Shown: positions 3,324 to 32,000 of the stretch, in pieces
How positions within the stretch are numbered: position 1 is the stretch's first letter
Layout: every line of letters starts with the position of its first letter
DNA from: Patescibacteria group bacterium
GTDB lineage: Bacteria; Patescibacteriota; Minisyncoccia; UBA6257; HR35
NCBI GenBank assembly: GCA_030549845.1
Contig: JAUQQN010000001.1
Coordinates: forward strand, 1 to 32,000
Direction of reading: 5' to 3'
DNA length: 32,000 bases
The notes under the pieces: generated by a model
The model's input: the letters and a program-made list of their open reading frames with translations, nothing else
What the model was told of the DNA's origin: nothing
Database searches by the model: none
Position numbers and translations under genes: made by a program

Positions 3324-6029
3324 TTATCCACAACCACCTGTGCTTTCTCCACATTCAATACAAGTATAGCATGAACCTGTTCTTACTGTCATTCCTCCAC
3401 AATATTTACAGGGTGGTCCTGTTAGTTCTTTTTTAAACTCAGCTTCCTGAAATGTTTGTTTAAGTTCTCTTGAAGAAAATAGTTGGGGGTGAGATTTTAA
3501 AATTTTTGATTCGTGAATATCTAGCCCTAGTTGTTTTAATTCTTCTGGAGATAAGAATCTAATTGCTAGATATTTAAATATGTAATCAATTATAGAGCTT
3601 GCTGTGGGGATTTCTGGATTATTGGTAAAACCCATAGGCTCAAATCTCATATGAATAAATTTATTTGCAAGCTCTTTTAATGGGACACCATATTGCAACG
3701 CAATAGAGACAGCTATAGCAAAAGCATCTAAAAGCCCTGCTAAGGTGCTACCTTGTTTTGACATTCTAATAAATATCTCCCCTAATGAACCATCTTCAAA
3801 CATACTATAAGTTAAATACCCTTCATGTCCTGCAACAGAGAATTTATGAGTTTCTGATTGTCTTACATCTGGTAATTTTCTTCTTTGAGTAATTTTTTCT
3901 TTTTTAGTTTCTTTCTTGCTTGTAAATAGAGCTTGGGTTGCTTTTGAACCATCTCTATAGATAGCAAAACATTTAATTCCAAGCTTCCAGGCCTGGATGA
4001 ATGCATTATATACATCTTCTATAGTTGCTGAATTTGGCATATTAAATGTTTTAGAAATAGCACCAGAAAGAAGAGGTTGGACTGCTGCTACCATTTTTAC
4101 ATGACCATCTAATGATATAAATCTCTTACCGCCTGGAGGAGGTACAGACGTATCAAAAATTGCTAAATGTTCTTCTTTAATATGTGGAGCTGTTTCAATG
4201 TTTTGGGTTTCTTCTAAATGTTTAAGTATATCTTCAATTTCTTTTTCAGAATAACCTAGTCTTTTAAGGGCTAATGGTACAGTTTTATTTACAATTTTCA
4301 TCCAGCCTCCACCAACAAGCTGTTTCATTTTTACCAAAGCAAAATCAGGTTCTATTCCTGTTGTATCACAGTCCATCATAAAACTTATTGTCCCCGTAGG
4401 AGCCAAAAGGCTTGCTTGCGCATTTCTAAAACCAAACTTTTCTCCTCTTTCAATTACTTCATCCCAAGCTTTATTCGCTTCTTCTAAAATTTTCTCAGCA
4501 ACTTTTAAGTTAGAATTCGTTAATTCTGTTTTTCCAATTTTGTAACTTTCATCCCGATGCATTTTTATCACTTCGAGCATCGGTTCTTTATTTTTTTCAT
4601 ATTCAGGAAATGGCCCTAAAATTTCAGAAATCTCAGTTGATGTTTTGTAGGCTTCAGCTGTCATAAGTGAAGTAATGCTTGCAGCTAAATATCTCGCTTC
4701 ATTTGAGTCATAAGGAAGGCCTAAAGCCATAATTAAAGCCCCAAGGTTTGTGTAACCTAAACCAATTGTTCGATATTTTTTGGTTTCTTCAGCTATCTTT
4801 GGATGTGGGTAATCAGCGGGCGAAATTAAAATATCTTGAGAAAGAAAAATTACTTTTACTGTATGTTTAAAGGCTTCAATATCGAAATCTCCATCATCTT
4901 TTAAAAATTTCATCAAATTAATCGAAGCAAGATTACATGAAGTCCAGTTAAGGAAGTTATATTCTGAACAAGGGTTAGTTGCTACAATTTCACCTGAATT
5001 TTTACAAGTATGCCATCTATTTATAGTGTCATGAAATTGAATTCCAGGATCGCCACATTCCCACGCTGCCTTAGCTGCTTCCCATAAAATTTCTCTTGCT
5101 TTATATGTTTTTGCTGGTTTTTTAGTCGTACGATAATAAGTTGTCCATTCCTTATCCTCAAGGGCTGCTTTCATAAATTCATCAGTTACCCTAATTGAAT
5201 TATTTGCATTTTGGAAAAATATATTTTGCCACAAAGGGTTATTTAAGTCAGTCATGTCATAGCCAGCTTCCATCAATGCTCTAACTTTGTTTTCCTCTTC
5301 AGCTTTTACTTTGATAAAATCCATAATTTCAGGATGATCAACATTCAAAATTACCATTTTAGCTGCTCGACGTGTTGAACCTCCAGATTTTATACTCCCA
5401 GCAACTGCATCAGCTGCTTTCATAAAAGAAACAACTCCTGAAGAAGAGCCTCCTGTTGAAAGTGGTTCTCCTTTTGCTCTTAGTTTAGATAAGTTTACTC
5501 CTGAACCAGAACCTCCCTTGAAAATCATTCCTTCAATTTTAATCCAATCCAAAATTGATTCCATATTATCTTCAACATCTAAAATAAAGCAGGCTGAACA
5601 TTGTTGTTTCCTACCTTCGACTCCAACATTAAACCAAACAGGAGAATTAAAAGCAGCGTATTGATGAAGCAAAATATAAGTCAGCTCTTCTTCATAAATT
5701 GTCGCAGTTTCCTCATTATCAAAATATCCTTGTTCTAAACCCCACTTTTTGAGTGTTTTTACAACTCTATCAATCAATTCTTTTAAAGAAGTTTCTTGTT
5801 TACCTTTATTGACTTTGAAATATTTCGAAGCTATTATGTTAATTGCATTTTGGCTGTAAAAATCAGGAAATTCTACATTTTCTAATTTAAAATCAGACCC
5901 AAGTATTTCTGCTGTTGTTCTTATCCATTTAACTTCCTCATAAGGATGTATGCCTTCTTTAGTAAAAAACCTCTTTATATTTATTTTTTTAGAAAAAGGG
6001 TTCTTTTGATTTCGTTTTTTTTGTGGCAT
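3324..6029 (-). CDS. nrdJ: adenosylcobalamin-dependent ribonucleotide reductase (class II)
   Basis: 901 aa. Motifs: FNSPVWFNVG, CSACFIL, GGSGSGVNLSKLR, active-site TNPCSEY and LLAPTGTISF. Cys-rich C-terminal tail CKYCGG...CYTCIECGESTGGCG (zinc-ribbon plus terminal Cys pair, as described for class II RNRs). Confidence 0.9.
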   Translation of the reverse strand: MPQKKRNQKNPFSKKINIKRFFTKEGIHPYEEVKWIRTTAEILGSDFKLENVEFPDFYSQNAINIIASKYFKVNKGKQETSLKELIDRVVKTLKKWGLEQGYFDNEETATIYEEELTYILLHQYAAFNSPVWFNVGVEGRKQQCSACFILDVEDNMESILDWIKIEGMIFKGGSGSGVNLSKLRAKGEPLSTGGSSSGVVSFMKAADAVAGSIKSGGSTRRAAKMVILNVDHPEIMDFIKVKAEEENKVRALMEAGYDMTDLNNPLWQNIFFQNANNSIRVTDEFMKAALEDKEWTTYYRTTKKPAKTYKAREILWEAAKAAWECGDPGIQFHDTINRWHTCKNSGEIVATNPCSEYNFLNWTSCNLASINLMKFLKDDGDFDIEAFKHTVKVIFLSQDILISPADYPHPKIAEETKKYRTIGLGYTNLGALIMALGLPYDSNEARYLAASITSLMTAEAYKTSTEISEILGPFPEYEKNKEPMLEVIKMHRDESYKIGKTELTNSNLKVAEKILEEANKAWDEVIERGEKFGFRNAQASLLAPTGTISFMMDCDTTGIEPDFALVKMKQLVGGGWMKIVNKTVPLALKRLGYSEKEIEDILKHLEETQNIETAPHIKEEHLAIFDTSVPPPGGKRFISLDGHVKMVAAVQPLLSGAISKTFNMPNSATIEDVYNAFIQAWKLGIKCFAIYRDGSKATQALFTSKKETKKEKITQRRKLPDVRQSETHKFSVAGHEGYLTYSMFEDGSLGEIFIRMSKQGSTLAGLLDAFAIAVSIALQYGVPLKELANKFIHMRFEPMGFTNNPEIPTASSIIDYIFKYLAIRFLSPEELKQLGLDIHESKILKSHPQLFSSRELKQTFQEAEFKKELTGPPCKYCGGMTVRTGSCYTCIECGESTGGCG

Positions 6030-22444: not shown

Positions 22445-23722
22445 ATGAGTATTTATGAAAACACTCTTAAAAGATTAGAAGAAATTAAAGATTTAATAAT
22501 AGAAAAGGGAGAATCAGAAAACAAAGTTGATGAAGTCTTTCAAATATTAAAAATACCACAAAGAATAATCAAGGTTAACCTTCCCCTACGAAAAGATAAT
22601 GGAAAATTAGAAATATACGAAGGTTATAGAGTTCAACATAATAATTTTTTAGGCCCATATAAAGGAGGTATAAGATATTTATTACAGGTTGATGAAGATG
22701 AAATAAAAACTTTAGCTTTATTAATGACATTGAAGTGTGCATTAGTAAATTTGCCATTAGGAGGTGCTAAGGGTGGGATTAAAGTGGATCCTAAAGCTTT
22801 ATCAGAAAATGAACTTGAAAAACTTTCAAGAGAATATGTAAGAAAAATTTACGATTTTATAGGTCCCGATAAAGATATTCCTGCTCCAGATATAAATACA
22901 AACTCAAAAATAATGGACTGGATGGTTGATGAATATTTAAAAATTAAAGGAGAAAAAAAGGAGGTTTTTAAAGCAGCATTTACAGGAAAATCTCTAGAGA
23001 ATGATGGCATTGAAGGAAGAGAGGAGGCAACTGGCAAGGGAGGAGAAATTATTTTGGAAGCACTAATTAAAAAATTAGGTCTTAAAAAACCACTTACTGT
23101 TGCCATTCAAGGTTTTGGTAATGTTGGTTACAATGTAGCTAAATTTTTATATAAAAGGGGTTATAAAATAATTGCAATTACTGATAGTAAAGCAGGAATA
23201 TATTCCAAAAATGGACTAAACCCAGAAATGATGATAATATGGAAAAAGGAGAAAGGGAGTTTTGATGATTATAAAATTTCAAAGTCAAATTCTGAATATA
23301 AGATAAAGAATGAAGAAATTTTTAATTTAGAAGTAGATGTATTAATTCCTGCAGCAATTGAAAACGTAATTACTGGAAATAATGCTAATAATATAAAATC
23401 AAAAATCATTTTAGAAATGGCAAACAATCCATTGACAGAAGAAGCAGAAAAAATTTTAGATTCTAGAGGTATTTTAATAGTACCAGATATACTAGCTAAC
23501 GTTGGAGGTGTAATTGTTTCATATTTTGAAATGTTACAAAATATTGAGGGAAAAAGATGGAGTAAAGAAAAAGTTTTCAAGGAATTAACGAATATTTTAG
23601 AAAATACCTTTCAAGAAGTGTGGCAAATAAGTAAAAAATTTAATACAAATTTTAGAAAGGCCTCTTTATTTCTTGCAGTAAAGAGAATTTATAAAAGATA
23701 CTTAGAACTAGGGAGCTATTAG
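22445..23722 (+). CDS. gdhA: Glu/Leu/Phe/Val-family dehydrogenase, most likely glutamate dehydrogenase
   Basis: GPYKGGIRY, LPLGGAKGG (catalytic Lys region), the dinucleotide fold GFGNVGY, and the C-terminal PDILANVGGVIVSYFE. Confidence 0.88.
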   Translation: MSIYENTLKRLEEIKDLIIEKGESENKVDEVFQILKIPQRIIKVNLPLRKDNGKLEIYEGYRVQHNNFLGPYKGGIRYLLQVDEDEIKTLALLMTLKCALVNLPLGGAKGGIKVDPKALSENELEKLSREYVRKIYDFIGPDKDIPAPDINTNSKIMDWMVDEYLKIKGEKKEVFKAAFTGKSLENDGIEGREEATGKGGEIILEALIKKLGLKKPLTVAIQGFGNVGYNVAKFLYKRGYKIIAITDSKAGIYSKNGLNPEMMIIWKKEKGSFDDYKISKSNSEYKIKNEEIFNLEVDVLIPAAIENVITGNNANNIKSKIILEMANNPLTEEAEKILDSRGILIVPDILANVGGVIVSYFEMLQNIEGKRWSKEKVFKELTNILENTFQEVWQISKKFNTNFRKASLFLAVKRIYKRYLELGSY

Positions 23723-23756: not shown

Positions 23757-24968
23757 TTACTCATATCTTAATGCTTCTATGGGATCAAGATTAGCAGCTT
23801 TTTTAGCAGGATAATAACCAAAAATTATTCCAATAGAAGTTGAAACTAAAATTGAAATTAATATTGCTTTATAAGAAATAATAATTGTTATATTTGTTAT
23901 TTTACCTACAAATATAGTAATACAACTTCCCAAAATTATGCCCACCGCACCACCAATCAAAGTTATAAATACAGATTCCAAAAGGATTTGATTCAAAATA
24001 TTCTTATTTTTAGCACCAATAGCTTTTCTTAAACCAATTTCTCTTGTTCTTTCAGTAACACTAGTTAACATCATATTCATAATACCTATCCCGCCAACAA
24101 TCAGCGAAATCCCAGCAATAAAAGAAAGGAAAATTGTAAAAGTATTAATAACAGAAGTTAAGGTAGTTAAAATATCTTCTTGTGAAAAAATAGAAAAATC
24201 TGGTTCAGTAACTTTATGAAGCTCTGTTAACCTTATTTCTATTTCTTCTCTAACTTTTTCAATATTTTCTTTACTATCTACTTTTACAGTTATTGAATTA
24301 AAATATTCAGTACCAGCTAATTGTTTTTGCATTACAGTATAAGGAACCAAAATAAAATCGTCATAACTTACAAAACCAGCTGATCCTTTAGGTTGCATAA
24401 CTCCTATTACCCTAAAACTTAAATTATTTATTCTAATTTTTCTTCCTAAAGGATCAATATCACCAAATAAATCTTTAGCAACATTGCTTCCTAACACAGC
24501 TACTTTAGAAAATGACCTTATATTTTCGTTAGTAATTTGGTCACCTTCAGCAATTTGTATATTTCTTACTTGAAAAAATTCAGGAGCGATTCCTAATACT
24601 GTTGAGTTTATATTATTACCAATATCAGAAACAATTTGAAATCTTCTTTGAACCTCTGGAGAAACAGCGCTTACGTTTTCAATTTTTTTTATTTCTTCAA
24701 CGTCTTTTATTTTCAAAACCTCTGCACTACCACGACCACTAGCTACAAATCCTCTTCCTGGCTGTACTATACCTGGGAAAACAATTAAATTATTTGAACC
24801 TAAGCTTTCGATACTTTGCTGAATACTAACTTTTGAGCCTTCTCCTAATGAAATCATAGAAATTACAGAAGCGACACCAATTATGATACCAAGCATTGTA
24901 AGCCCTGTTCTTAACTTATTTGACTTCAACGAACTTAAGCTTTCTTTTAATAAATCATTAAATTTCAT
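23757..24968 (-). CDS. MacB-type ABC transporter permease (FtsX-like fold with large extracytoplasmic domain)
   Basis: N-terminal TM (LRTGLTMLGIIIGVASV), a ~220-aa periplasmic domain and three C-terminal TMs with ERTREIGLRKAIGA. It overlaps the ATPase gene by 11 nt. Confidence 0.85.
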   Translation of the reverse strand: MKFNDLLKESLSSLKSNKLRTGLTMLGIIIGVASVISMISLGEGSKVSIQQSIESLGSNNLIVFPGIVQPGRGFVASGRGSAEVLKIKDVEEIKKIENVSAVSPEVQRRFQIVSDIGNNINSTVLGIAPEFFQVRNIQIAEGDQITNENIRSFSKVAVLGSNVAKDLFGDIDPLGRKIRINNLSFRVIGVMQPKGSAGFVSYDDFILVPYTVMQKQLAGTEYFNSITVKVDSKENIEKVREEIEIRLTELHKVTEPDFSIFSQEDILTTLTSVINTFTIFLSFIAGISLIVGGIGIMNMMLTSVTERTREIGLRKAIGAKNKNILNQILLESVFITLIGGAVGIILGSCITIFVGKITNITIIISYKAILISILVSTSIGIIFGYYPAKKAANLDPIEALRYE

Positions 24969-25674
24969 TATTGTGATATAAAATTTTTCTATTTTTTACT
25001 TCTTCTTCAGCAATAATTTCTCCATCTCTTATTTTAATAATTTTTTCAGCATGTTGAGCAATATATTCTTCATGGGTAATTAAAACAATCGTTATGCCTT
25101 TTTCAAAATTAAGTTTTTGTAAAGTATGCATAATAATTTCTCCAGTTTTAGTATCTAAATTACCTGTAGGCTCATCAGCTAAGATTATTTCTGGATCATT
25201 AACTAAAGCTCTAGCAATAGCAACCCTTTGCATCATTCCTCCAGAAAGTTGATTTGGATAATGATATATAAAATTTTCTGGGAAAGCAGAAGCTTTTAGG
25301 GCTTCTTTAGCTTTTTCTATTCTTAGTTTTGAATTTAGTCCACTATAAATTGTTGGCAAAATTACATTTTCTAAAACATTTTTTCTAGGAAGCAAATAAA
25401 AAGCTTGAAAAACAAATCCGATTTTTTTATTCCTCAATTTGGCAAGATCATCATCGTCTAACTTATTAACATTAACTCCTTCTAAAAAGTATTCACCAGA
25501 TGTTGGTCTATCTAACAACCCAATAATATGCATTAAAGTTGATTTACCAGAACCAGATGGTCCCATTATTGCTACAAATTCACCTTTATTTATTTTTAGA
25601 TTTACATTTTTAAGAGCTATAGTTTCTACTTCGCCAGTTTTATAAATTTTCGTTATGTTTTTAAGTTCTATCAT
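24958..25674 (-). CDS. MacB/LolD-type ABC transporter ATP-binding protein
   Basis: Walker A GPSGSGKST, Q-loop FVFQ, signature LSGGMMQRVAIARAL and Walker B ILADEPTGNLD. ATGA overlap with the upstream adaptor gene. Confidence 0.9.
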   Translation of the reverse strand: MIELKNITKIYKTGEVETIALKNVNLKINKGEFVAIMGPSGSGKSTLMHIIGLLDRPTSGEYFLEGVNVNKLDDDDLAKLRNKKIGFVFQAFYLLPRKNVLENVILPTIYSGLNSKLRIEKAKEALKASAFPENFIYHYPNQLSGGMMQRVAIARALVNDPEIILADEPTGNLDTKTGEIIMHTLQKLNFEKGITIVLITHEEYIAQHAEKIIKIRDGEIIAEEEVKNRKILYHNNEI

Positions 25675-27401
25675 TGTCTAATTCCAGGAGAACGAATAAA
25701 TCTTCTTGGCTGAGGGAAAAGTTTTTGAAATAAGCCTTCATTTTGGTTAGTAGAAATTATTTGAGCGTTTGTTAAAGATTTAACTATAATCCATTCTCCC
25801 TCTTCTAAGCCTTTTAAAATTTCAACATTCTTTTCATCACTTAGGCCTGTTTCAATAAACTTTTTCTGTGGTGGATAATTTAAATTAACATTAATTATTT
25901 TTTCAATATTTCTTTCTTTATTAAGTGTTGTAAGGTTACTTAAATTAGAAAATCTCTGGTTTAAAATAGCTATATCTCTTTCGTCTGGCACTTCAACGTA
26001 TTTTCGATTTTTAAACATTTTAACAGCTTGATTAGGAACAATTAAAACATTATTTTTTCCTTCAACGGCAATATCAGCATTAACAGTCATGCCTATTTTT
26101 ACTTTAGGATTATTCTCAAAAGCAATTTTAACTTTATAACTAACTACCCCCTGAGAAATTTCACCAATTGGATCTATAGAAATAATTTTTCCTTTTAATT
26201 GAAAATTAGGTAAAGCATCGAAGGTTAAAATGACATCATTTCCAATTTTTATTTCAGCTGCATCTACTTCATTAAGTTTAACTTCAGCAATTTTATCTAA
26301 AGATTGGATGGTTAACAAAACTTGAGATGGATTCACATAGTCATTTATCTTAACATTCATTTGAGAAATATAACCAGTAACTGGTGAGTAAATAACATAA
26401 TCTTTCAAGTCGTCTCTTAAATCTTGAATTTTAATTTCTAATTGCTTAATATTAATTTGGGTATTTTTAATATCTAAATCCAAACTATTAAGATTATCAT
26501 AAAAAGCGTTACTTTTATTAATATAATCGCCGAAATTATTTAAGTAAACAAGAAAAGTAGAATAAAGTTCATTTAAATTATTTATATGCTCATTAATTGT
26601 ATCTTGAAAAATATGCTGTTGTTGATTAAATATTGAACTTTCTTTAATAGACCTAATTTTATCTAAGCCAAATTTTATTAAATTAAGATACTCAAGGGTT
26701 AAGTTGTAATAATCTTTAATAAAATTCTGATCTATCTCAGAAGGTTCACTTTTTATAAGATTAAATTTAGAGGCAAGCTTTAAATACCTCTCTTTTAAGG
26801 AGTCGAAGGTTTTTTTAATCTTATCAGTTTGTAATTGGTAGTCTTTATTATAATAGCTAAGATAATATTCCAAATTATTTTTAATATAAGTTACTTTTGG
26901 AAAATCATTACTAAAGTAAATCTTATTTAATCTATCATGAGCTATAGGCAGTTTCTCTGTAAATTCTGAAATAATACTAAGATATGATTCATTTAATTTT
27001 CTTAAATCATCACTTCTTTGTAATTGTTCTTTCTTTTGAAGTAATTTTTCAAGGTTGATTTTTTGAGATTCTAGATTAAACTCTAGATCCCGAATTTGTT
27101 TTTCTAAATCAGTGGAATCAATTTTTGCCAATAATTCACCTCTTTTTACTAAATCTCCTTCTTTGAATGGTAAATATATTATTTTGCCACTGACTTGAGA
27201 TCTAACATCAAATGACTCAATAGAGACTATATTACCACTTCCAGAAACAGTTTTCTGAATAGATCCTCTAGTTACTTGAGTTATAGCAAAAAGATTGTTG
27301 TTTTTCTTAATTATAAGTTTTTTATAAATATAATATCCGCCAACAAGAATTGAAGCTATAATAAACAAAAGAAAAAACTTGTTTTTGAATATTTTAAACA
27401 T
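25671..27401 (-). CDS. HlyD/MacA-family membrane-fusion (periplasmic adaptor) protein with long coiled-coil insert
   Basis: N-terminal TM, a split lipoyl-like domain (SQVSGKIIYLPFKEGDLVKRGELLAKID ... IYSPVTGYISQMNVKINDYV) separated by ~240 aa of heptad-rich sequence, and C-terminal beta-barrel regions. 576 aa. Confidence 0.75.
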   Translation of the reverse strand: MFKIFKNKFFLLFIIASILVGGYYIYKKLIIKKNNNLFAITQVTRGSIQKTVSGSGNIVSIESFDVRSQVSGKIIYLPFKEGDLVKRGELLAKIDSTDLEKQIRDLEFNLESQKINLEKLLQKKEQLQRSDDLRKLNESYLSIISEFTEKLPIAHDRLNKIYFSNDFPKVTYIKNNLEYYLSYYNKDYQLQTDKIKKTFDSLKERYLKLASKFNLIKSEPSEIDQNFIKDYYNLTLEYLNLIKFGLDKIRSIKESSIFNQQQHIFQDTINEHINNLNELYSTFLVYLNNFGDYINKSNAFYDNLNSLDLDIKNTQINIKQLEIKIQDLRDDLKDYVIYSPVTGYISQMNVKINDYVNPSQVLLTIQSLDKIAEVKLNEVDAAEIKIGNDVILTFDALPNFQLKGKIISIDPIGEISQGVVSYKVKIAFENNPKVKIGMTVNADIAVEGKNNVLIVPNQAVKMFKNRKYVEVPDERDIAILNQRFSNLSNLTTLNKERNIEKIINVNLNYPPQKKFIETGLSDEKNVEILKGLEEGEWIIVKSLTNAQIISTNQNEGLFQKLFPQPRRFIRSPGIRQ

Positions 27402-27475
27402 TCTTAAAATTATAAAACTATTTAATTATAACCCTAATAACTTTATTATCCTACATTATAAAATTTTGGTAATAT

Positions 27476-27512
27476 AATTTTGGTAATCAGATTACGAAAA
27501 TTCGTAAATAAT
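27476..27512. repeat. palindrome family copy 1 (core GTAATCAGATTAC at 27483-27495)
   Basis: AATTTTGGTAATCAGATTACGAAAATTCGTAAATAAT. 36/37 identical to copy 3. About 80 bp upstream of the macA-like ATG (27401) and about 70 bp downstream of the GxxExxY stop. Confidence 0.9.
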
Positions 27513-27564
27513 TATTATCTAGAAACGATCAATTTCTATACTCAAGTTACAAAAATATAAGTTT

Positions 27565-28032
27565 TTAATCATTATGATTCTCTAATTTTATTTCTGCAAT
27601 TTTTAGACCTTTATAATTTTTCACCTCTGCCTTCAGTTGTCCTGATGGTTTTGTAAAATTAAAAACAAAACCTATTGGATAAAGTTCTTCGTTATCTTTT
27701 AATTCCTTTCTTAGTTCTTGCATATACCTTTCAACTTGTTTTTGGCTATCGATCTTAAGCTCAGAAATAGACTTTAACTCAATAATTATCGCGATTTTTT
27801 TCTTTCCTTTTGTATACCAAACTATTAAGTCAGGGGCTCCTCTTCCAACAACATAACCATTAAAAGTTATAGGTAATGTTCTTTGAGCTTCATATTTTAT
27901 TCCTTTCTCTCTTAAAGCTACTTCCATTGCTTTTTGATAAATATCTTCTTCCCAGCCTGCGCCTAATTCCTCATAAACCCTTGCTGCACATTCTTTCAAT
28001 TCATTTATTAATTCTTTAATCCCTTTCTCCAT
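27565..28032 (-). CDS. GxxExxY family protein (PD-(D/E)XK nuclease-fold)
   Basis: GAGWEEDIYQKAMEVAL contains the G-x-x-E-x-x-Y signature. Downstream, PDLIV ... IIELKS matches the D..(D/E)xK layout. 155 aa. Confidence 0.75.
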   Translation of the reverse strand: MEKGIKELINELKECAARVYEELGAGWEEDIYQKAMEVALREKGIKYEAQRTLPITFNGYVVGRGAPDLIVWYTKGKKKIAIIIELKSISELKIDSQKQVERYMQELRKELKDNEELYPIGFVFNFTKPSGQLKAEVKNYKGLKIAEIKLENHND

Positions 28033-28167
28033 TTTTTTATTTTTTAAATTAATCCTTCAATCTTTCTACTTTGCTTTTTTTAATAATCTTTTAATAATTT
28101 ATACTTTTTCTTATTTTCGTATGATTTTTAAACCAAATCAGTAATTTTTATTGGATGAATTTTTGAA

Positions 28168-28195
28168 ACAATTTTGGTAATCAGATTACGAAAAT
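28168..28195. repeat. palindrome family copy 2 (core 28177-28189)
   Basis: ACAATTTTGGTAATCAGATTACGAAAAT, identical over 28 nt to copy 3. About 145 bp upstream of the GxxExxY ATG. Confidence 0.9.
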
Positions 28196-28309
28196 GATTA
28201 ATTCCTGACTTTTTTAAATAATTACTGGAATATTTAATTGCTTATAATCTTGTTTCATTAATTTAATTTTATCACTTTTTAGGAAAGTTTTAGGTTGGCA
28301 GATAGAAAA

Positions 28310-28348
28310 ACAATTTTGGTAATCAGATTACGAAAATACGTAAATAAT
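28310..28348. repeat. palindrome family copy 3 (core 28319-28331)
   Basis: ACAATTTTGGTAATCAGATTACGAAAATACGTAAATAAT, 39 nt downstream of the HD gene stop (28387). Confidence 0.9.
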
Positions 28349-28386
28349 GTTATATTGCTAAAAAGAAAGTTATTAGTTGTTAGCTT

Positions 28387-29388
28387 CTAGTTTTTTAATA
28401 AATAGTCCCGAATCAAAGGAATTAAACGCTTCCATTTAGGTGGTAATTCTTTCCCCAAAAATGCAAAAAGATTCTCTTCGTGAATGCTATTTTGTAATAT
28501 TTCTCTAAGTTGTTCCTCCTCTTCTTCTGTTATAATCCTATTTACTTTAGCTTCTTTTACAATTTCATCTATATCTTGCTTATTAAGTTTAATCTTTTTC
28601 AATCTCTCTTCGTTTTTAATTTCTTGGATTTTTCTTCTTACAGCCTCGACAGAACCAAGATTAATCAACTGATCTTTTATTTGTTGCTTTTTAACTTCAT
28701 CTGCTTGAAGGCTTTGCAGAAATTCATCAATAATCATATAACATTCCCAAGCTATTATCATATTTATAAAACCGGTAAAATCAGACAACCCTTCGGAATT
28801 TAATGAACCCGCAATATCAAGAAAACAAGCAGTAAAAAACAAATTAATATCTATACCTTTTTCTATAATATGTTTCTCGAAATTTCTAGCTGAACTACTC
28901 TGGTTAAATATTTGAAAATACACCTCGTGGCTTGAAATTATTTTTAAAAGCTGTTCATTTCTATTAATAAAATCATTTATTTCTTCTTCTTGAGCAAATT
29001 CTTGGATAATCCTTACCCCTTCTTCGCCATGATCTTTATTGCCAATACGGTAACTAATTTGTGTATAACCTTCACTTTTCAAAACTTCTAAAGCTGCATC
29101 ACTATTTCCATTAGTCCTTTGTAAATACTCTTGCCATCTATCCATAGTAAAAGGCGTTTGATTTTTTTGAGAATCTATGATCATCATACAATTCAATTTG
29201 CCTATATCATGTAGATAAATAAACCATAGTAATTGTTCAAATGAATTTTTGACAGTAGTGGTTATTATGCTAATAACTCGATTTCTAAGTTCCTCTAATC
29301 CTGGAGGGAATTTTAAGATACTAAAATCAAAAGAACCTCCCTTAATTTCTTCTAGGGCTTGAATCATTAGACCAATATGAGCAGCCAT
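28387..29388 (-). CDS. HD-superfamily metal-dependent phosphohydrolase with C-terminal coiled-coil; 5' end uncertain
   Basis: His (AAHIGLM), then YLHDIGK, then SSHEV, then FLDIAGS give the H...HD...D pattern. The C-terminal ~100 aa are Glu/Lys-rich and helical. The reading frame stays open a further 57 codons upstream of ATG 29388 (see findings). Confidence 0.6.
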   Translation of the reverse strand: MAAHIGLMIQALEEIKGGSFDFSILKFPPGLEELRNRVISIITTTVKNSFEQLLWFIYLHDIGKLNCMMIIDSQKNQTPFTMDRWQEYLQRTNGNSDAALEVLKSEGYTQISYRIGNKDHGEEGVRIIQEFAQEEEINDFINRNEQLLKIISSHEVYFQIFNQSSSARNFEKHIIEKGIDINLFFTACFLDIAGSLNSEGLSDFTGFINMIIAWECYMIIDEFLQSLQADEVKKQQIKDQLINLGSVEAVRRKIQEIKNEERLKKIKLNKQDIDEIVKEAKVNRIITEEEEEQLREILQNSIHEENLFAFLGKELPPKWKRLIPLIRDYLLKN

Positions 29389-29824
29389 TACAGGACCTTC
29401 ACTATGATAAGGACCTAATTGAGGAATATTTAAAGATTCTTCAACAATCTCTCTTAATTTTTGGGGTATTTTAATATCTTGAAGTTTTTCTCGAGCTAAA
29501 TTAATCCAACTTTCTATATTTTGTGCTGTTAATTTCCGTGAGTCCTTTGAGCGATTTTCTTAATGAGGTTGTGGTTTATAAATTTCGGATTGCATTTAAA
29601 AATTTATACAATAAGCTTGTAAAGTTTTTTTTGCTTAACCTATTGATGACGAAAATTTTATATAGAGTTTTCTCGGTTATTTTTCTCTCTTTTCTTTTTT
29701 CAAGAATTCCAAATTTTTCTTCACATAAAACTCCTTTTATTAAATCCTCAAGTATTGCATTATTATATTATAACTTAATTATTAATTAGCACAATTCTTT
29801 TTCATTACTTAACCAGTTAATTGA

Positions 29825-29869
29825 TTTTTCGTCTTTTTCGTAAGTCTTTTTCGTAATCAGATTACAAAA
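29825..29869. repeat. palindrome family copy 4 (core 29853-29865) preceded by two extra direct half-sites
   Basis: TTTTTCGTC TTTTTCGTAAGTC TTTTTCGTAATCAGATTACAAAA. TTTTTCGT starts at 29825, 29834 and 29847. It lies between the sfsA stop (29926) and the HD gene. Confidence 0.9.
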
Positions 29870-29925
29870 CCTCAAATGCGACAAATAAATCCTTTTTCTC
29901 AAGAGGCTGAGAAATTAATTATAAT

Positions 29926-30741
29926 TTAGAGAATTATTCTTAAATCATCATTTTTTAAGATAATATTTTTTGTTTTAAGGTCGAGATATATTTGAATAGC
30001 TTTGATTTTTATATCTTTCTTTTTAGCAATTTTAAGTAATTTATAGATTTTTTCATCAGCATCCTTATTTGGTTTAAAAGCATTAATATTTTTAATACCT
30101 GCGATAAAAAGGATAATTGAATTTTTTGGTTTTCTTATTAATTCTTTAATATGTTTTTGACCCCTCAAAGAGGGACAGTCAGGATACATAGCAAGATTAT
30201 CTCTTTTCATTACAGCACTTTTAATTTCTAAATAATATTTTTTATTTTTGTATTGAACTAAATAATCAATTAGAGAATTATTTAATTTTATATTCTTTTT
30301 CAATATTTTTGCTCCTTTAAGCCATGAAATCAAATTTTTTTCAACAGCAATTTCAAAACATTTCATTTGAAGTAAAGTATCTATTATACTTGCTGAGTTT
30401 TTGTCTTCTTTAATAAAGGAAAGTCTATATTTTGTTTTTTTAGGATTTTTTAGAGGGGAAAGATAACCAATTTTTCTTTTAATTAAAAATTGTTCTAATC
30501 TTCCAGTATTATTTAAAGAAGCTTTAGTAATTTTATTATTAATTTTTACCTCGATAACAAATCTATTTACTCGTCTAACAATTTTAGAGGGGATTAAAGA
30601 AGGGATTTTTAAAATGCTTCTCATCAAACAAAATTCTATTATAATTAATTTCTCATTATCTTGAGAAAATAAGGAAGATTTTCGCTCTGCGCCGTTTTTA
30701 CGCTGTAAAGCAATTTTTAAGTAATCTGAAGAAATATTCAA
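29926..30741 (-). CDS. sfsA: SfsA-family protein (OB-fold plus PD-(D/E)XK nuclease-like domain)
   Basis: RRVNRFVIEV (family RxxRF motif), NTGRL, YLEIKSAV and YPDCPSLRGQKHIKEL align with E. coli SfsA. 30741 is a TTG. The ATG at 30624 (MRSILKIPS...) puts RxxRF at the usual distance from the N-terminus and is the more likely start. Confidence 0.8.
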   Translation of the reverse strand: MNISSDYLKIALQRKNGAERKSSLFSQDNEKLIIIEFCLMRSILKIPSLIPSKIVRRVNRFVIEVKINNKITKASLNNTGRLEQFLIKRKIGYLSPLKNPKKTKYRLSFIKEDKNSASIIDTLLQMKCFEIAVEKNLISWLKGAKILKKNIKLNNSLIDYLVQYKNKKYYLEIKSAVMKRDNLAMYPDCPSLRGQKHIKELIRKPKNSIILFIAGIKNINAFKPNKDADEKIYKLLKIAKKKDIKIKAIQIYLDLKTKNIILKNDDLRIIL

Positions 30742-30760
30742 TTAAATCCTACCAAATATT

Positions 30761-31792
30761 TTAATAAACCTGATTTAATTCCAAATATGCTAAAGTTGCA
30801 AATGAATAAAGAAAAGTTTTAAAAATACCTGATAATAAAAGAACCCCTCCGAAAACTAATGTGCCTAATATAATTCCAATTATAATTCCTGCTATAGGTG
30901 AAATAAAATATAACCCTATAACAAGCATTATAATAATAAAAATTGTAGGGGAAAGAATAAAATATTTAATTCCTGTTTCCAGAGCCATATATATAAGCCA
31001 AGTTAATAAAACATTTTTAGGATTAGCAAATAATAATCTTCCCGCATTCTTTAATGAACCCAAAGCTCCGTTATTTTTTATTACAATAAACCTTTCAGCA
31101 AATATATGTAATATAGAAAGATAAGCTAAGATTAATAACCATAAAATAAGTGAAATTATTCCTACAAAAATAGAAGCGGGGACATTTCTTGTAGTAAAAT
31201 TAAAGTAGAGAAATAGTAAAACAAAAAGTAATAAACTAAAATCACCGAGAAATGAAATAATTAACTTCAAAAAGAACATTCTGAAGAAATAATGAGCTCC
31301 ATCTTTGAATAATTTTCTAAAATTTATTTCTTCCTCTTTTTTAATATTATTTACTCCAGAAATCAATGCAGTCTTTGATATAAAACCTAGGATTATAAAA
31401 ATTAAATAAATTGCAATTAGAATAAATATTATTTCTATATAATCCCACCAAAGGCGCCTTAAAATACTTATATAAGGATCTTCTAAAATCAAGCTTTTCG
31501 CAGTTTCTAAACTATCATATGGAGGGTATATTGGTAATGTCTCTTTTAAAGATTCATGAATAGATGCTAAAAATTTTGTTGACCATATTGGAGGCAGAAA
31601 AAGAAGAGGGAGATTCAAAAACCCTTCTTGCTTAAATTCCTTTAATATATTTAATATATCATTAATATCAATTAAAAATCTCAAATCAATAAAAATAAAC
31701 TCTAATAAAAATGCGAATATTCCAAAGATCCAAAGAAATTTATACTTAAATGTTATTTGCCAAGCTCTTGAAATTATATAAGAATAATTCAT
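30761..31792 (-). CDS. hypothetical polytopic membrane protein
   Basis: 343-aa ATG ORF with about 7 long hydrophobic segments and no recognised family. It lies upstream of, and probably co-transcribed with, sfsA. Confidence 0.55.
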   Translation of the reverse strand: MNYSYIISRAWQITFKYKFLWIFGIFAFLLEFIFIDLRFLIDINDILNILKEFKQEGFLNLPLLFLPPIWSTKFLASIHESLKETLPIYPPYDSLETAKSLILEDPYISILRRLWWDYIEIIFILIAIYLIFIILGFISKTALISGVNNIKKEEEINFRKLFKDGAHYFFRMFFLKLIISFLGDFSLLLFVLLFLYFNFTTRNVPASIFVGIISLILWLLILAYLSILHIFAERFIVIKNNGALGSLKNAGRLLFANPKNVLLTWLIYMALETGIKYFILSPTIFIIIMLVIGLYFISPIAGIIIGIILGTLVFGGVLLLSGIFKTFLYSFATLAYLELNQVY

Positions 31793-31837
31793 TTATAGAA
31801 TTATAGAACAAATCAATTCCAAATTTCAATTTAATAG

Positions 31838-31860
31838 TTTCGTAATCAGATTACGGAAGA
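31838..31860. repeat. palindrome family copy 5 (core 31842-31854)
   Basis: TTTCGTAATCAGATTACGGAAGA, 50 bp upstream of the membrane-protein ATG (31792). 22/23 identical to copy 6. Confidence 0.9.
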
Positions 31861-31944
31861 CATGTTATTTTTAGAAGAAAAATTACAAAAAAAATTTTAT
31901 TTATTTAAGGGCACCTCTAGAATTTTTAAGTTCTTTTAATCACT

Positions 31945-31967
31945 TTTCGCAATCAGATTACGGAAGA
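31945..31967. repeat. palindrome family copy 6 (core GCAATCAGATTAC at 31949-31961)
   Basis: TTTCGCAATCAGATTACGGAAGA, with one mismatch in the left arm. It sits 107 bp from copy 5, near the window end. Confidence 0.85.
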
Positions 31968-32000
31968 GAGGACTTGTTAAAATAATTTTAAAATAATTTT

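What the first reader, a model, noticed from the sequence alone, without database searches (positions are those of the whole stretch)
27462..31967. Locally clustered palindrome family GTAATC-A-GATTAC occupies every intergenic gap of a same-strand gene block
Six copies were read directly, with cores at 27483, 28177, 28319, 29853, 31842 and 31949. All are intergenic, and all have the central A on the plus strand. The asymmetric flanks are TTTT(G/C)G on the left and CG(A/G)AA on the right. Two subfamilies are visible. Copies 1-3 share 28-37 nt (AATTTTGGTAATCAGATTACGAAAAT.CGTAAATAAT). Copies 5-6 share 22/23 nt (TTTCGYAATCAGATTACGGAAGA). Core-to-core spacings are 694, 142, 1534, 1989 and 107 bp, so each interval holds either one transcription unit or nothing. 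By eye I found no full copy in the first 27 kb of the window. The hairpins are not followed by T-runs on either strand, so they do not look like intrinsic terminators. Candidate explanations are: a shared operator for an unidentified dimeric regulator (a local regulon), a REP/BIME-like extragenic palindrome family, or attC-like cassette boundaries. The unrelated single-gene units in one orientation fit the cassette idea. I cannot distinguish among these from this window.
Basis: seen in the sequence. Interest (0 to 1): 0.75.

Follow-up and report, generated by a model that had tools for sequence, protein, structure and literature searches.

The report
Palindromes marking junctions of swappable gene modules
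A 25-base palindromic DNA site is repeated seven times between the genes of a small, decaying accessory region in an ultra-small (Patescibacteria-like) bacterium. Every structural difference from a near-identical strain starts or ends at one of these sites, so they most likely act as recombination junctions rather than ordinary gene switches.

Summary
GTAATCAGATTAC occurs five times exactly and once with one mismatch in window 27483-31961, against 0.06 expected. Nothing resembling it occurs in 1-27400. A seventh copy lies just beyond the window.

The element is larger than described. It is a near-perfect 23-25 bp palindrome, ATTTT(G/C)GTAATC-A-GATTAC(G)AAAAT, with extra half-sites beside some copies. 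All copies have the same orientation.

Hairpins are weak and no terminators were found, which points to a double-stranded protein-binding site.

A relative with 98.5% identity in the adjacent efflux operon (L013) keeps four copies but differs in three ways:
- An 836-bp GxxExxY-nuclease segment is present or absent exactly between copies 1 and 3.
- A replacement begins 7 nt right of the copy-4 core.
- All homology ends 7 nt right of the copy-6 core.

The genes between copies are unrelated, and different ones are broken in the two strains. More distant relatives lack the motif.

Best reading (0.45): junction or recombination sites of small gene modules, worked by an unidentified enzyme. This resembles Acinetobacter dif modules, but the sites fail the tests for dif, attC and REP. 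A local operator (0.27) is not excluded. The whole genome could not be retrieved.

The parts
27477..27501 (+). Copy 1: ATTTTGGTAATCAGATTACGAAAAT (core 27483-27495). It lies 88 bp upstream of the HlyD-type adaptor start and 76 bp past the GxxExxY stop.
27463..27473 (+). Extra left half-site ATTTTGGTAAT, a direct repeat of the left arm of copy 1.
27502..27509 (+). Extra half-site-like TCGTAAAT directly right of copy 1. Copy 3 has the same feature at 28338-28345.
   Evidence: family D4
28171..28195 (+). Copy 2: ATTTTGGTAATCAGATTACGAAAAT, 151 bp upstream of the GxxExxY start.
28313..28337 (+). Copy 3: ATTTTGGTAATCAGATTACGAAAAT, 62 bp past the stop of the HD-like gene.
27502..28337 (.). 836-bp segment (GxxExxY gene, copy 2 and one repeat unit) that is present here and absent in relative L013. 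The single site in L013 equals the left flank of copy 1 joined to the right flank of copy 3.
27565..28032 (-). GxxExxY / PDDEXK_3 nuclease-fold gene (155 aa), the module between copies 1 and 2.
28387..29595 (-). HD-like gene carrying a CAA-to-TAA nonsense change at codon 12 in the window. It is intact (410 aa) in L013.
29826..29846 (+). Two extra direct left half-sites (TTTTTCGTC, TTTTTCGTAAG) upstream of copy 4. One 13-bp unit is a tandem duplication that L013 lacks.
29847..29871 (+). Copy 4: TTTTTCGTAATCAGATTACAAAACC, 67 bp past the SfsA stop.
29873..30460 (.). Segment (3' part of SfsA) replaced in L013 by about 58 unrelated bp. Its left end point is 7 nt right of the copy-4 core.
29926..30741 (-). 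SfsA (OB domain plus PD-(D/E)XK nuclease). It is truncated in L013.
30761..31792 (-). 343-aa membrane protein with no family match. It is frameshifted into 71, 49 and 201 aa ORFs in L013.
31836..31860 (+). Copy 5: AGTTTCGTAATCAGATTACGGAAGA, 56 bp upstream of the membrane-gene start. A TTGAAA-18-TATAAT promoter-like site lies 6 nt beyond its left edge on the - strand.
31943..31967 (+). Copy 6 (degenerate): CTTTTCGCAATCAGATTACGGAAGA, 70 bp upstream of a + strand 339-aa gene that starts at about 32025 (seen on L001).
31969..32000 (.). Start of DNA with no counterpart in L013. Homology stops 7 nt right of the copy-6 core. Beyond the window lie the 339-aa gene and copy 7 (TTTTCGTAATCAGATTACGAAAAT, extended coordinates 33081-33104, which is L001 1-24).

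Best explanation
The palindromes are double-stranded DNA sites for a symmetric (dimeric) DNA-processing protein. They act as the junctions at which small, unrelated gene modules are gained, lost or replaced in a variable accessory region upstream of a MacAB/HlyD-type efflux operon in a Patescibacteria-like genome.

Shown: the sites are real, locally clustered, all in one orientation, and sit between single-gene units. In the one close relative available, all three structural differences have an end point in or at the right edge of a site.

Inferred: a recombinase or nuclease recognises the 12-nt arms and cuts at or near the right arm. Candidates are a tyrosine recombinase using 9-bp arms around a 7-bp ATCAGAT overlap, an HUH-type enzyme, or one of the PD-(D/E)XK nucleases encoded among the modules. 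Recombination between directly oriented sites then excises or inserts the DNA between them. The extra direct half-sites beside copies 1 and 4 would be accessory binding sites. The enzyme itself was not found in the 33 kb available.
For: 1. Non-random local family: 6 sites against 0.06 expected, none in 27.4 kb next door, and a 7th beyond the window.
2. Orientation: all 7 have the central A on the same strand. The two-sided chance is about 1/64 (inference).
3. Comparison with L013, which is 98.5% identical over the efflux operon. The 836-bp GxxExxY segment is present or absent exactly between copies 1 and 3, and the single L013 site is the hybrid 'left of copy 1 plus right of copy 3'. A 588-bp versus 58-bp replacement starts 7 nt right of the copy-4 core. 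All homology stops 7 nt right of the copy-6 core.
4. Odds of the edge coincidence: with 6 sites in about 4.5 kb, one end point landing within 3 nt of a right edge has roughly a 1% chance. Two did so (my estimate).
5. Different histories on either side of the sites. Third-codon divergence is 2-3% in the efflux operon, about 8% in the HD gene, 5% and position-independent in the membrane gene, and 38% in the GDH gene.
6. The flanked genes are unrelated, and different ones are broken in each strain.
7. Copies 1-3 share flanks beyond the palindrome. Copies 5 and 6 share GGAAGA in the window but have GAAAGA and GAAAAA in L013, which suggests exchange between copies.
8. Logan contig L001 ends exactly at the right arm of copy 7. 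This is weak evidence for population variation at that point.
9. RNA and DNA hairpins are weak, and there are no terminators or Rfam matches.
Against: - Only one informative strain pair is available.
- No recombinase, transposase or integrase gene lies in the window or on L001, L013 or L011.
- The indel between copies 1 and 3 could arise by ordinary slippage or homologous recombination between 26-37 nt direct repeats, with no dedicated enzyme.
- Homologs of the 339-aa gene and of SfsA sit in ordinary housekeeping contexts without the motif in other Patescibacteria, so the 'modules' are not obviously mobile genes.
- Close GxxExxY homologs (70-82% identical) lie in other contexts without the palindrome.
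- The genome-wide distribution is unknown, because the 302,595-bp source contig could not be fetched.
Confidence: 0.45

Rival explanations
1. The palindromes are operators of a dimeric transcription factor that controls a small local regulon. The factor binds the 12-1-12 palindrome, and the extra half-sites give cooperative binding. It activates or represses the efflux operon, the nuclease-like genes and the divergent gene pair.
For: - The near-perfect palindrome with a 1-nt centre is the classic shape of a dimer operator.
- Two copies lie 107 bp apart in a divergent intergenic region.
- Promoter-like hexamers lie 6-10 nt beyond the edges of copies 5 and 1, which places the site centres near -51 to -55.
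- The half-site CGTAAT equals the Bacillus Zur-box half-site (TCGTAAT-N-ATTACGA, from my own knowledge). An EMSA primer containing CGTAATAATTACGA in PMC6336718 is consistent with this.
- An unrelated Prevotella contig carries six tandem CGTAA-N5-TTACG units with an exact 22-bp period, so proteins that read this geometry probably exist.
Against: - No HTH or Fur-family gene lies in the window or on L001. The one unknown neighbour folds like a nucleotidyltransferase.
- The spacing is 7-3-7, not the Fur-family 7-1-7.
- The flanked genes have no common function, and several are pseudogenes in one strain or the other.
- The promoter scan finds fewer sites than shuffles do (23 against 29), so the geometry is not significant.
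- L011, whose adaptor protein is 91% identical, keeps the efflux promoter region without the palindrome.
- This reading does not explain the uniform orientation or the end points at the right edges.
- Between strains the sites are not clearly better conserved than the neighbouring intergenic DNA.
Confidence: 0.27
2. The palindromes are a passive short repeat with no dedicated protein. One palindromic sequence was copied locally by duplication and unequal recombination. It now acts only as a fragile or homologous sequence that seeds deletions and illegitimate recombination (REP/MITE-like in the loose sense).
For: - Copies 1-3 are recent duplicates with shared flanks.
- A 13-bp tandem duplication sits next to copy 4.
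- The indel between copies 1 and 3 is what slippage between direct repeats would give.
- The sites show no stronger conservation than their surroundings.
- The motif is confined to a narrow lineage.
Against: - Copies 4-7 share nothing beyond the 25 bp, so the palindrome itself is what is kept.
- A perfect copy sits in an unrelated context in another MAG (L002).
- A 25-bp palindrome with a free energy of -2 to -8 kcal/mol is a poor cruciform or hairpin.
- Two independent end points fall at the same offset (+7) from the core, which suggests defined cutting rather than random breakage.
Confidence: 0.2
3. The palindromes are integron-type attC sites bounding gene cassettes.
For: The single-gene units lie in one orientation. 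A site follows the 3' end of four units by 48-76 bp. One unit shows a presence/absence difference between strains.
Against: - The sites are 25-bp simple palindromes. They lack the R''-L''...L'-R' layout, variable centre, extrahelical bases and GTTRRRY core of attC sites, which are 57 bp or longer (features from my own knowledge, compared).
- No IntI gene or attI site lies in 33 kb.
- Some units are empty (142 bp and 107 bp), and one contains two genes.
Confidence: 0.03
4. The palindromes are RNA-level elements such as hairpin terminators or processing sites.
For: Four copies lie 48-76 bp after stop codons.
Against: - The RNA hairpins have free energies of -2.2 to -4.4 kcal/mol and are no better than shuffles, with z-scores of -0.7 to -1.6.
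- There are no T-runs and no terminator-like sites.
- Rfam gives no match, even at E of 1 or below.
- About 25 other genes in the window have no such element.
Confidence: 0.03

Closest known systems
Acinetobacter dif (pdif) modules: small gene modules bounded by XerC/XerD sites (PMC6449649, PMC13141974, PMC12907356)
   Same: Both have short, partly palindromic protein-binding sites of 25-28 bp between small modules of one or two accessory genes, with no recombinase inside the modules. Module content differs between close relatives, with the junctions at the sites.
   Different: - dif/pdif sites are 28 bp (11-6-11) with unlike XerC and XerD arms. These sites are 25 bp, nearly perfectly symmetric, with 5 rather than 6 bp between the inner TAA and TTA.
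- pdif sites alternate in orientation around modules, whereas all copies here point one way.
- pdif modules are plasmid-borne in a proteobacterium. This array appears to be chromosomal in a Patescibacteria-like genome.
- Involvement of Xer is untested.
Integron gene cassettes and attC sites
   Same: Both form arrays of unrelated, mostly single-gene units in one orientation, each followed by a palindromic site. Arrays differ between strains at the site boundaries.
   Different: The sites are far shorter and simpler than attC sites, no integrase or attI site is seen, and the units appear to carry their own promoters.
Neisseria dRS3 repeats and intergenic mosaic elements (NIME); lead from PMC3898611 and my own knowledge
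   Same: Both are 20-odd bp repeats with inverted-repeat ends that cluster in intergenic arrays. They flank variable segments and mark sites of rearrangement and element insertion.
   Different: The sequence differs. dRS3 repeats occur in hundreds of copies across the genome, whereas this family looks low-copy and local. No associated phage or IS110-type enzyme is seen.
REP/BIME elements with RAYT transposases
   Same: Both are short extragenic palindromes repeated in intergenic DNA.
   Different: REPs are imperfect palindromes with a conserved 5' GTAG. They occur in inverted pairs and in hundreds of dispersed copies alongside a RAYT gene. None of these features is seen here.
Fur-family (Zur) boxes and other dimer operators
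   Same: The half-site TCGTAAT / ATTACGA is identical, the overall form is palindromic, and the position is intergenic and near promoters.
   Different: The half-sites are 2 bp further apart (7-3-7 against 7-1-7). No zinc-related genes and no Fur-family gene lie nearby. The sites coincide with rearrangement end points.

Membership tests
dif / pdif (Xer) sites | 28-bp site made of an 11-bp XerC arm, a 6-bp central region and an 11-bp XerD arm, with the inner parts palindromic (PMC6449649) | tested here: not met
   The sites are 25 bp and read 12-1-12, or equivalently 10-5-10 or 9-7-9. The arms are mirror images of each other.
dif / pdif (Xer) sites | Sites flanking a module alternate in orientation (C/D then D/C) | tested here: not met
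   All 7 copies have the same central base and orientation.
dif / pdif (Xer) sites | XerC/XerD-type recombinase in the genome, and one main dif site at the replication terminus | not testable with these tools
   Only 33 kb of the 302,595-bp contig is available. No recombinase lies in it.
Integron cassette array | attC of 57 bp or more with R''/L''/L'/R' boxes and a GTTRRRY core | tested here: not met
   The sites are 25-bp simple palindromes with no GTTRRRY core.
Integron cassette array | intI gene with attI and Pc at one end of the array | tested here: inconclusive
   None is present in window 1-32000, on L001 or on L013. The far end of the array was not reached.
REP/BIME | Many dispersed copies throughout the intergenic DNA of the genome | tested here: not met
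   There are no copies in 27.4 kb holding about 20 intergenic gaps. Only one strict match occurs in the related species-representative MAG. The whole source genome was not available.
REP/BIME | Imperfect palindrome with 5' GTAG, copies in inverted pairs, and a RAYT (Y1 HUH) gene | tested here: not met
   The palindrome is near-perfect, has no GTAG, and all copies are direct. No RAYT gene lies in the 33 kb.
MITE | Terminal inverted repeats around 50-500 bp of internal sequence, flanked by a target-site duplication | tested here: not met
   The two arms abut with a 1-nt centre and there is no internal sequence. No short duplication flanks the copies.
Fur-family (Zur) operator | 7-1-7 inverted repeat TCGTAAT-N-ATTACGA (own knowledge; primer in PMC6336718) | tested here: not met
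   The half-sites match but are separated by 3 nt (CAG) rather than 1.
Fur-family (Zur) operator | Lies in promoters of metal-homeostasis genes, with a Fur-family regulator encoded in the genome | tested here: inconclusive
   The neighbours are an efflux operon, nuclease-fold genes, an HD-like gene, a membrane protein and an NTase-like protein. No Fur-like ORF lies in the window. The rest of the genome was not seen.
Transcription-factor operator (generic) | Consistent position relative to promoters, conserved in relatives | tested here: inconclusive
   The centres of copies 1 and 5 fall near -51 and -55 of promoter-like sites, but such sites are no more frequent than in shuffles. The motif is kept in L013 but absent in L011 (91% identical adaptor protein) and in homolog contexts with 62-71% identical proteins.
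Intrinsic terminator | Stable G+C-rich hairpin followed by a T-run | tested here: not met
   The scan found no terminator-like sites. RNA hairpins have free energies of -2 to -4 kcal/mol, no better than shuffles.

The most novel reading that the evidence does not exclude
Ultra-small Patescibacteria may carry a previously undescribed module-exchange system. In it, a 25-bp symmetric site with accessory half-sites is cut or recombined by a dedicated enzyme, so that single-gene modules are inserted, excised and swapped in a chromosomal array. The enzyme could be a Xer-like tyrosine recombinase acting on an unusual 9-7-9 site, or one of the restriction-fold nucleases (GxxExxY, SfsA) encoded within the array. 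This would be a functional analogue of integrons or dif modules in a lineage where almost no mobile-element biology is known. It would also give the enigmatic multi-copy GxxExxY genes a role.
Probability: 0.18. Interest if true: 0.8.

Novelty: new variant of a known kind. Interest (0 to 1): 0.5.

Why it matters
Patescibacteria (CPR) have tiny genomes, few recognisable mobile elements and few regulators, so how they gain and lose accessory genes is poorly understood. A short, well-defined site at which gene modules are exchanged would give a concrete, testable handle on genome plasticity in this group. It would extend the 'small modules bounded by recombination sites' principle (integrons, Acinetobacter dif modules) to a new site type and a new phylum. 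If the sites turn out to be an operator instead, they would define one of the few regulons visible in such organisms. Either way the 25-mer is a ready-made probe for DAP-seq, EMSA and read-level junction searches.

Tried and rejected
- **Collection scans.** I scanned the GTDB species genomes, JGI metagenomes and IMG/VR with TTTSGTAATCAGATTACGRAA. The only hits were L002 (a probable relative), a Prevotella array and one coding-region chance hit.
- **Fetching the source contig.** The 302,595-bp contig could not be fetched through its exact proteins. Only the 4.8-kb Logan contig L001 was returned.
- **GxxExxY homologs.** Homologs 70-82% identical sit in unrelated contexts without the motif. This gives no support for GxxExxY carrying the sites with it.
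- **339-aa neighbour.** Homologs lie in housekeeping contexts without the motif. The structure model is confident (pLDDT 89.6) but has no significant PDB match, only weak nucleotidyltransferase-like hits. It is therefore not an evident regulator or recombinase.
- **Protein-family libraries.** Pfam, NCBIfam, PADLOC and PHROGs scans of the local proteins showed no defence system, phage or recombinase signal.
- **RNA readings.** Rfam at gathering and E-value thresholds, the tRNA scan and hairpin folding all rejected RNA-level explanations.
- **Chromosome-organisation sites.** There is no canonical parS in the window. DnaA-box-like words are scattered rather than clustered at the array.
- **Plasmid and phage searches.** BLAST of the site gave only chance-level hits, with E of 2 or more.
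- **Literature.** I found nothing on dif sites in Patescibacteria or on GxxExxY mobility.

Full report
**Observation.**
The pattern GTAATCNGATTAC (up to 1 mismatch) matches at 27483, 28177, 28319, 29853 and 31842 exactly, and at 31949 as GCAATCAGATTAC. That is six matches against 0.06 expected, and no shuffle of 100 reached six. All six have A at the centre on the + strand, and all are intergenic. A PWM built from the copies scores them 31-37 bits and finds nothing at or above 10 bits in 1-27400. The reported spacings and sub-families are correct.

1. The 'asymmetric flanks' are in fact complementary (TTTT[G/C] ... [G]AAAA). The unit is therefore a 23-25 bp near-perfect palindrome, ATTTT(G/C)GTAATC-A-GATTAC(G)AAAAT.
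2. The 19-bp gap between SfsA and the membrane gene has no copy.
3. The family runs on beyond the window.

**Anatomy.**
Extra half-sites lie beside some copies:
- ATTTTGGTAAT at 27463-27473, left of copy 1.
- TCGTAAAT directly right of copies 1 and 3.
- TTTTTCGTC and TTTTTCGTAAG at 29826-29846, left of copy 4.

Folded as single strands, the sites have free energies of only -0.4 to -5.6 kcal/mol as DNA and -2.2 to -4.4 kcal/mol as RNA. The RNA values are no better than shuffles. There are no terminator-like sites and no Rfam matches even at E of 1 or below. The sites therefore look like double-stranded targets of a symmetric protein, not RNA elements.

**Context.**
The window is 24-34% G+C. It encodes RF2, FtsEX, RecG, DinB and a class II ribonucleotide reductase, and its homologs are named Parcubacteria or Patescibacteria. 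The organism is therefore a CPR-type bacterium, even though the closest NCBI records are labelled archaeal MAGs.

The genes between the sites all lie on the - strand:
- a GxxExxY / PDDEXK_3 nuclease-fold protein (27565-28032);
- an HD-like gene with a CAA-to-TAA nonsense codon at position 12 (28387-29595);
- SfsA (29926-30741);
- a 343-aa membrane protein (30761-31792).

Copy 1 lies 88 bp upstream of a HlyD/MacB-type efflux operon (23757-27401).

The Logan contig L001 holds the same sequence and extends 1.1 kb further. It shows that copies 5 and 6 sit in a divergent intergenic region. The next gene is a + strand 339-aa protein, which is followed 48 bp after its stop by a seventh, perfect copy (TTTTCGTAATCAGATTACGAAAAT). 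The contig ends in that copy.

**Distribution.**
Exact-pattern scans gave the following:
- In 185,579 species genomes: one probable relative (L002, a perfect 25-bp palindrome in a 600-bp intergenic region of a MAG contig) and one Prevotella contig.
- In JGI metagenomes: a single hit inside a coding region.
- In IMG/VR: nothing.

The family is therefore narrow in lineage and, where it can be seen, low in copy number. The source contig (302,595 bp, NCBI) could not be retrieved, so the genome-wide count is unknown.

**Comparison with relatives (the key evidence).**
A homolog search with the HlyD-type adaptor protein found two related contigs.

L011, whose adaptor protein is 91% identical, has no motif. 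It carries a different restriction-modification/NERD island directly upstream of the operon.

L013 is 98.5% identical over the operon and has four copies, which are orthologs of copies 1/3, 4, 5 and 6. BLAST and pairwise alignments show three structural differences between L013 and the window, and each touches a palindrome.
1. The window has an 836-bp segment (the GxxExxY gene plus copy 2) between copies 1 and 3. L013 has one site, made of the left flank of copy 1 and the right flank of copy 3.
2. Homology runs through copy 4 to GATTAC(A/G)AAACC and stops at 29872|29873. The next 588 bp (the 3' part of SfsA) are replaced in L013 by about 58 unrelated bp.
3. Homology runs through copy 6 to GATTACG(G/A)AA(G/A)AG and stops at 31968|31969. 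The window continues with the 339-aa gene, and L013 continues with unrelated DNA.

Two independent end points thus fall 7 nt right of a core. By my estimate each has about a 1% chance of doing so, given 6 sites in about 4.5 kb.

Divergence also changes across the sites (with the HD reading frame corrected by one base):

| Gene | Third-codon mismatch |
|---|---|
| Efflux genes | 1.9-3.4% |
| HD-like gene | about 8% |
| Membrane gene | 5%, equal at all codon positions |
| GDH gene | 38% |

The genes are dispensable. HD is broken in the window but intact (410 aa) in L013. The membrane gene and SfsA are broken in L013.

Copies 5 and 6 share GGAAGA in the window but read GAAAGA and GAAAAA in L013. 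This suggests exchange between copies.

**Interpretation.**
The best-supported reading is that the palindromes are junction sites at which small modules are gained, lost or replaced. The shown steps are the clustering, the uniform orientation and the coincidence of end points. The existence and kind of the enzyme are inferred. Plausible mechanisms are:
- a tyrosine recombinase using 9-bp arms around a 7-bp ATCAGAT overlap, with the direct half-sites as accessory sites;
- an HUH enzyme cutting at the foot of the hairpin;
- a dimeric PD-(D/E)XK nuclease, of which two (GxxExxY and SfsA) are encoded in the array.

No such enzyme could be tied to the sites. Close GxxExxY homologs elsewhere lack the motif. 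Homologs of the 339-aa protein lie in housekeeping contexts without it. That protein's confident model (pLDDT 89.6) gives only weak nucleotidyltransferase-like matches.

**Rivals.**
- Operator. This remains credible. The site has a dimer shape, and there are two sites in a divergent region. Promoter-like hexamers next to copies 1 and 5 place the centres near -51 and -55. The half-site is identical to the Bacillus Zur box (own knowledge; a primer in PMC6336718). Against it, the spacing is 7-3-7 rather than 7-1-7, and no regulator gene is nearby. The promoter-like sites are no more frequent than in shuffles, L011 keeps the promoter region without the site, and the flanked genes are unrelated and decaying. 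It also explains neither the uniform orientation nor the end points.
- Passive repeat or fragile site. This explains the indel between copies 1 and 3 and the 13-bp tandem duplication. It does not explain why only the 25-mer is shared among copies 4-7 and L002, or why two end points share the same offset.
- attC and terminator readings fail their defining features.

**Comparison with known systems.**
The closest functional analogue is the Acinetobacter dif-module system: small accessory modules bounded by Xer sites, with no recombinase in the modules and shuffling between relatives (PMC6449649, PMC13141974). Membership fails, however. dif/pdif sites are 28 bp (11-6-11) with unlike arms and alternate in orientation. 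Integron attC sites, REP/BIME elements, MITEs and Fur-family boxes each fail at least one defining feature that was tested here. Neisseria dRS3/NIME arrays are a looser parallel. I therefore rate this as a new variant of a known kind, namely short recombination or junction sites bounding gene modules, in a phylum where none has been described.

**Limits.**
There is only one informative strain pair and only 33 kb of the genome, and no enzyme was identified. BLAST of the site against plasmid and phage collections gave only chance-level hits, and literature searches found nothing specific.

**Scores.**
Interest is 0.5. The best explanation has confidence 0.45, the operator 0.27 and the passive repeat 0.2.

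Noticed in passing
L003 3074-3205 (Prevotella MAG contig CAZUWO010000001.1): Six tandem units with an exact 22-bp period, each TTT-YGTAA-N5-TTACR-GRA, lie upstream of a Nudix hydrolase gene (2391-2954, - strand). One unit is identical over 21 nt to window copy 5. It looks like a cooperative protein-binding array with the same half-site geometry as the window palindromes, in an unrelated phylum. Its function is unknown.
   Followed up: partly
window 29561-29563 (- strand codon 12 of the HD-like gene, 28387-29595): There is an in-frame TAA where the relative L013 has CAA (Gln). The window gene is therefore a recent pseudogene or a sequencing error. Substitutions between the two strains are otherwise dominated by third positions (32/15/5), so the gene was functional until recently.
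   Followed up: yes
window 22445-23722 versus 23757-27401, compared with L013: The glutamate dehydrogenase gene is only 77-79% identical between the two strains, while the convergent MacB/ABC/HlyD operon next to it is 98.5% identical. The switch falls in the 35-bp gap between the two genes. The genomes are mosaic, with recent exchange of the efflux operon or replacement of GDH.
   Followed up: partly
window, whole (perfect copies at 3324, 6105 and 11652): DnaA-box-like TTATCCACA (up to 1 mismatch) occurs 23 times against 9.6 expected, and no shuffle of 100 reached 23. The hits are scattered through coding DNA rather than clustered. No explanation was sought.
   Followed up: no
L001 61-1080 (- strand), equal to extended window coordinates of about 32025-33044: A 339-aa protein belongs to a conserved Patescibacteria-wide family (83 homologs) with no Pfam or NCBIfam match. 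It often lies between a ribosome-hibernation factor and SufC. The AlphaFold model is confident (pLDDT 89.6, pTM 0.86) but has no significant PDB neighbour, only weak nucleotidyltransferase-like hits (ANT(2''), MenT).
   Followed up: partly
Records behind L002, L011 and L013 (JAWAJM010000061.1, JAVYLF010000003.1, JAWCGI010000055.1): The NCBI MAGs that hold the closest relatives are labelled Aenigmatarchaeota or Nitrososphaerota archaea. The shared genes, and the window's RF2, FtsEX and RecG, are bacterial and closest to Parcubacteria. These contigs are probably mis-binned or mislabelled.
   Followed up: no
L009 3056-3080 (Logan SRR21619490 contig): TTTTTCGCAAACAGATTTCGAAAAG is a 22.5-bit match to the palindrome PWM. 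It lies inside an SNF2-helicase gene just upstream of a GxxExxY homolog. It could be chance or a degenerate relative of the site.
   Followed up: no
L011 1-9985: In the relative whose adaptor protein is 91% identical, the position upstream of the efflux operon holds a different island (N6/N4 methyltransferase, ResIII/SNF2 helicase, NERD, PGA_cap/DUF192) with no palindromes. This locus is therefore a general hot spot for accessory DNA in the lineage.
   Followed up: partly
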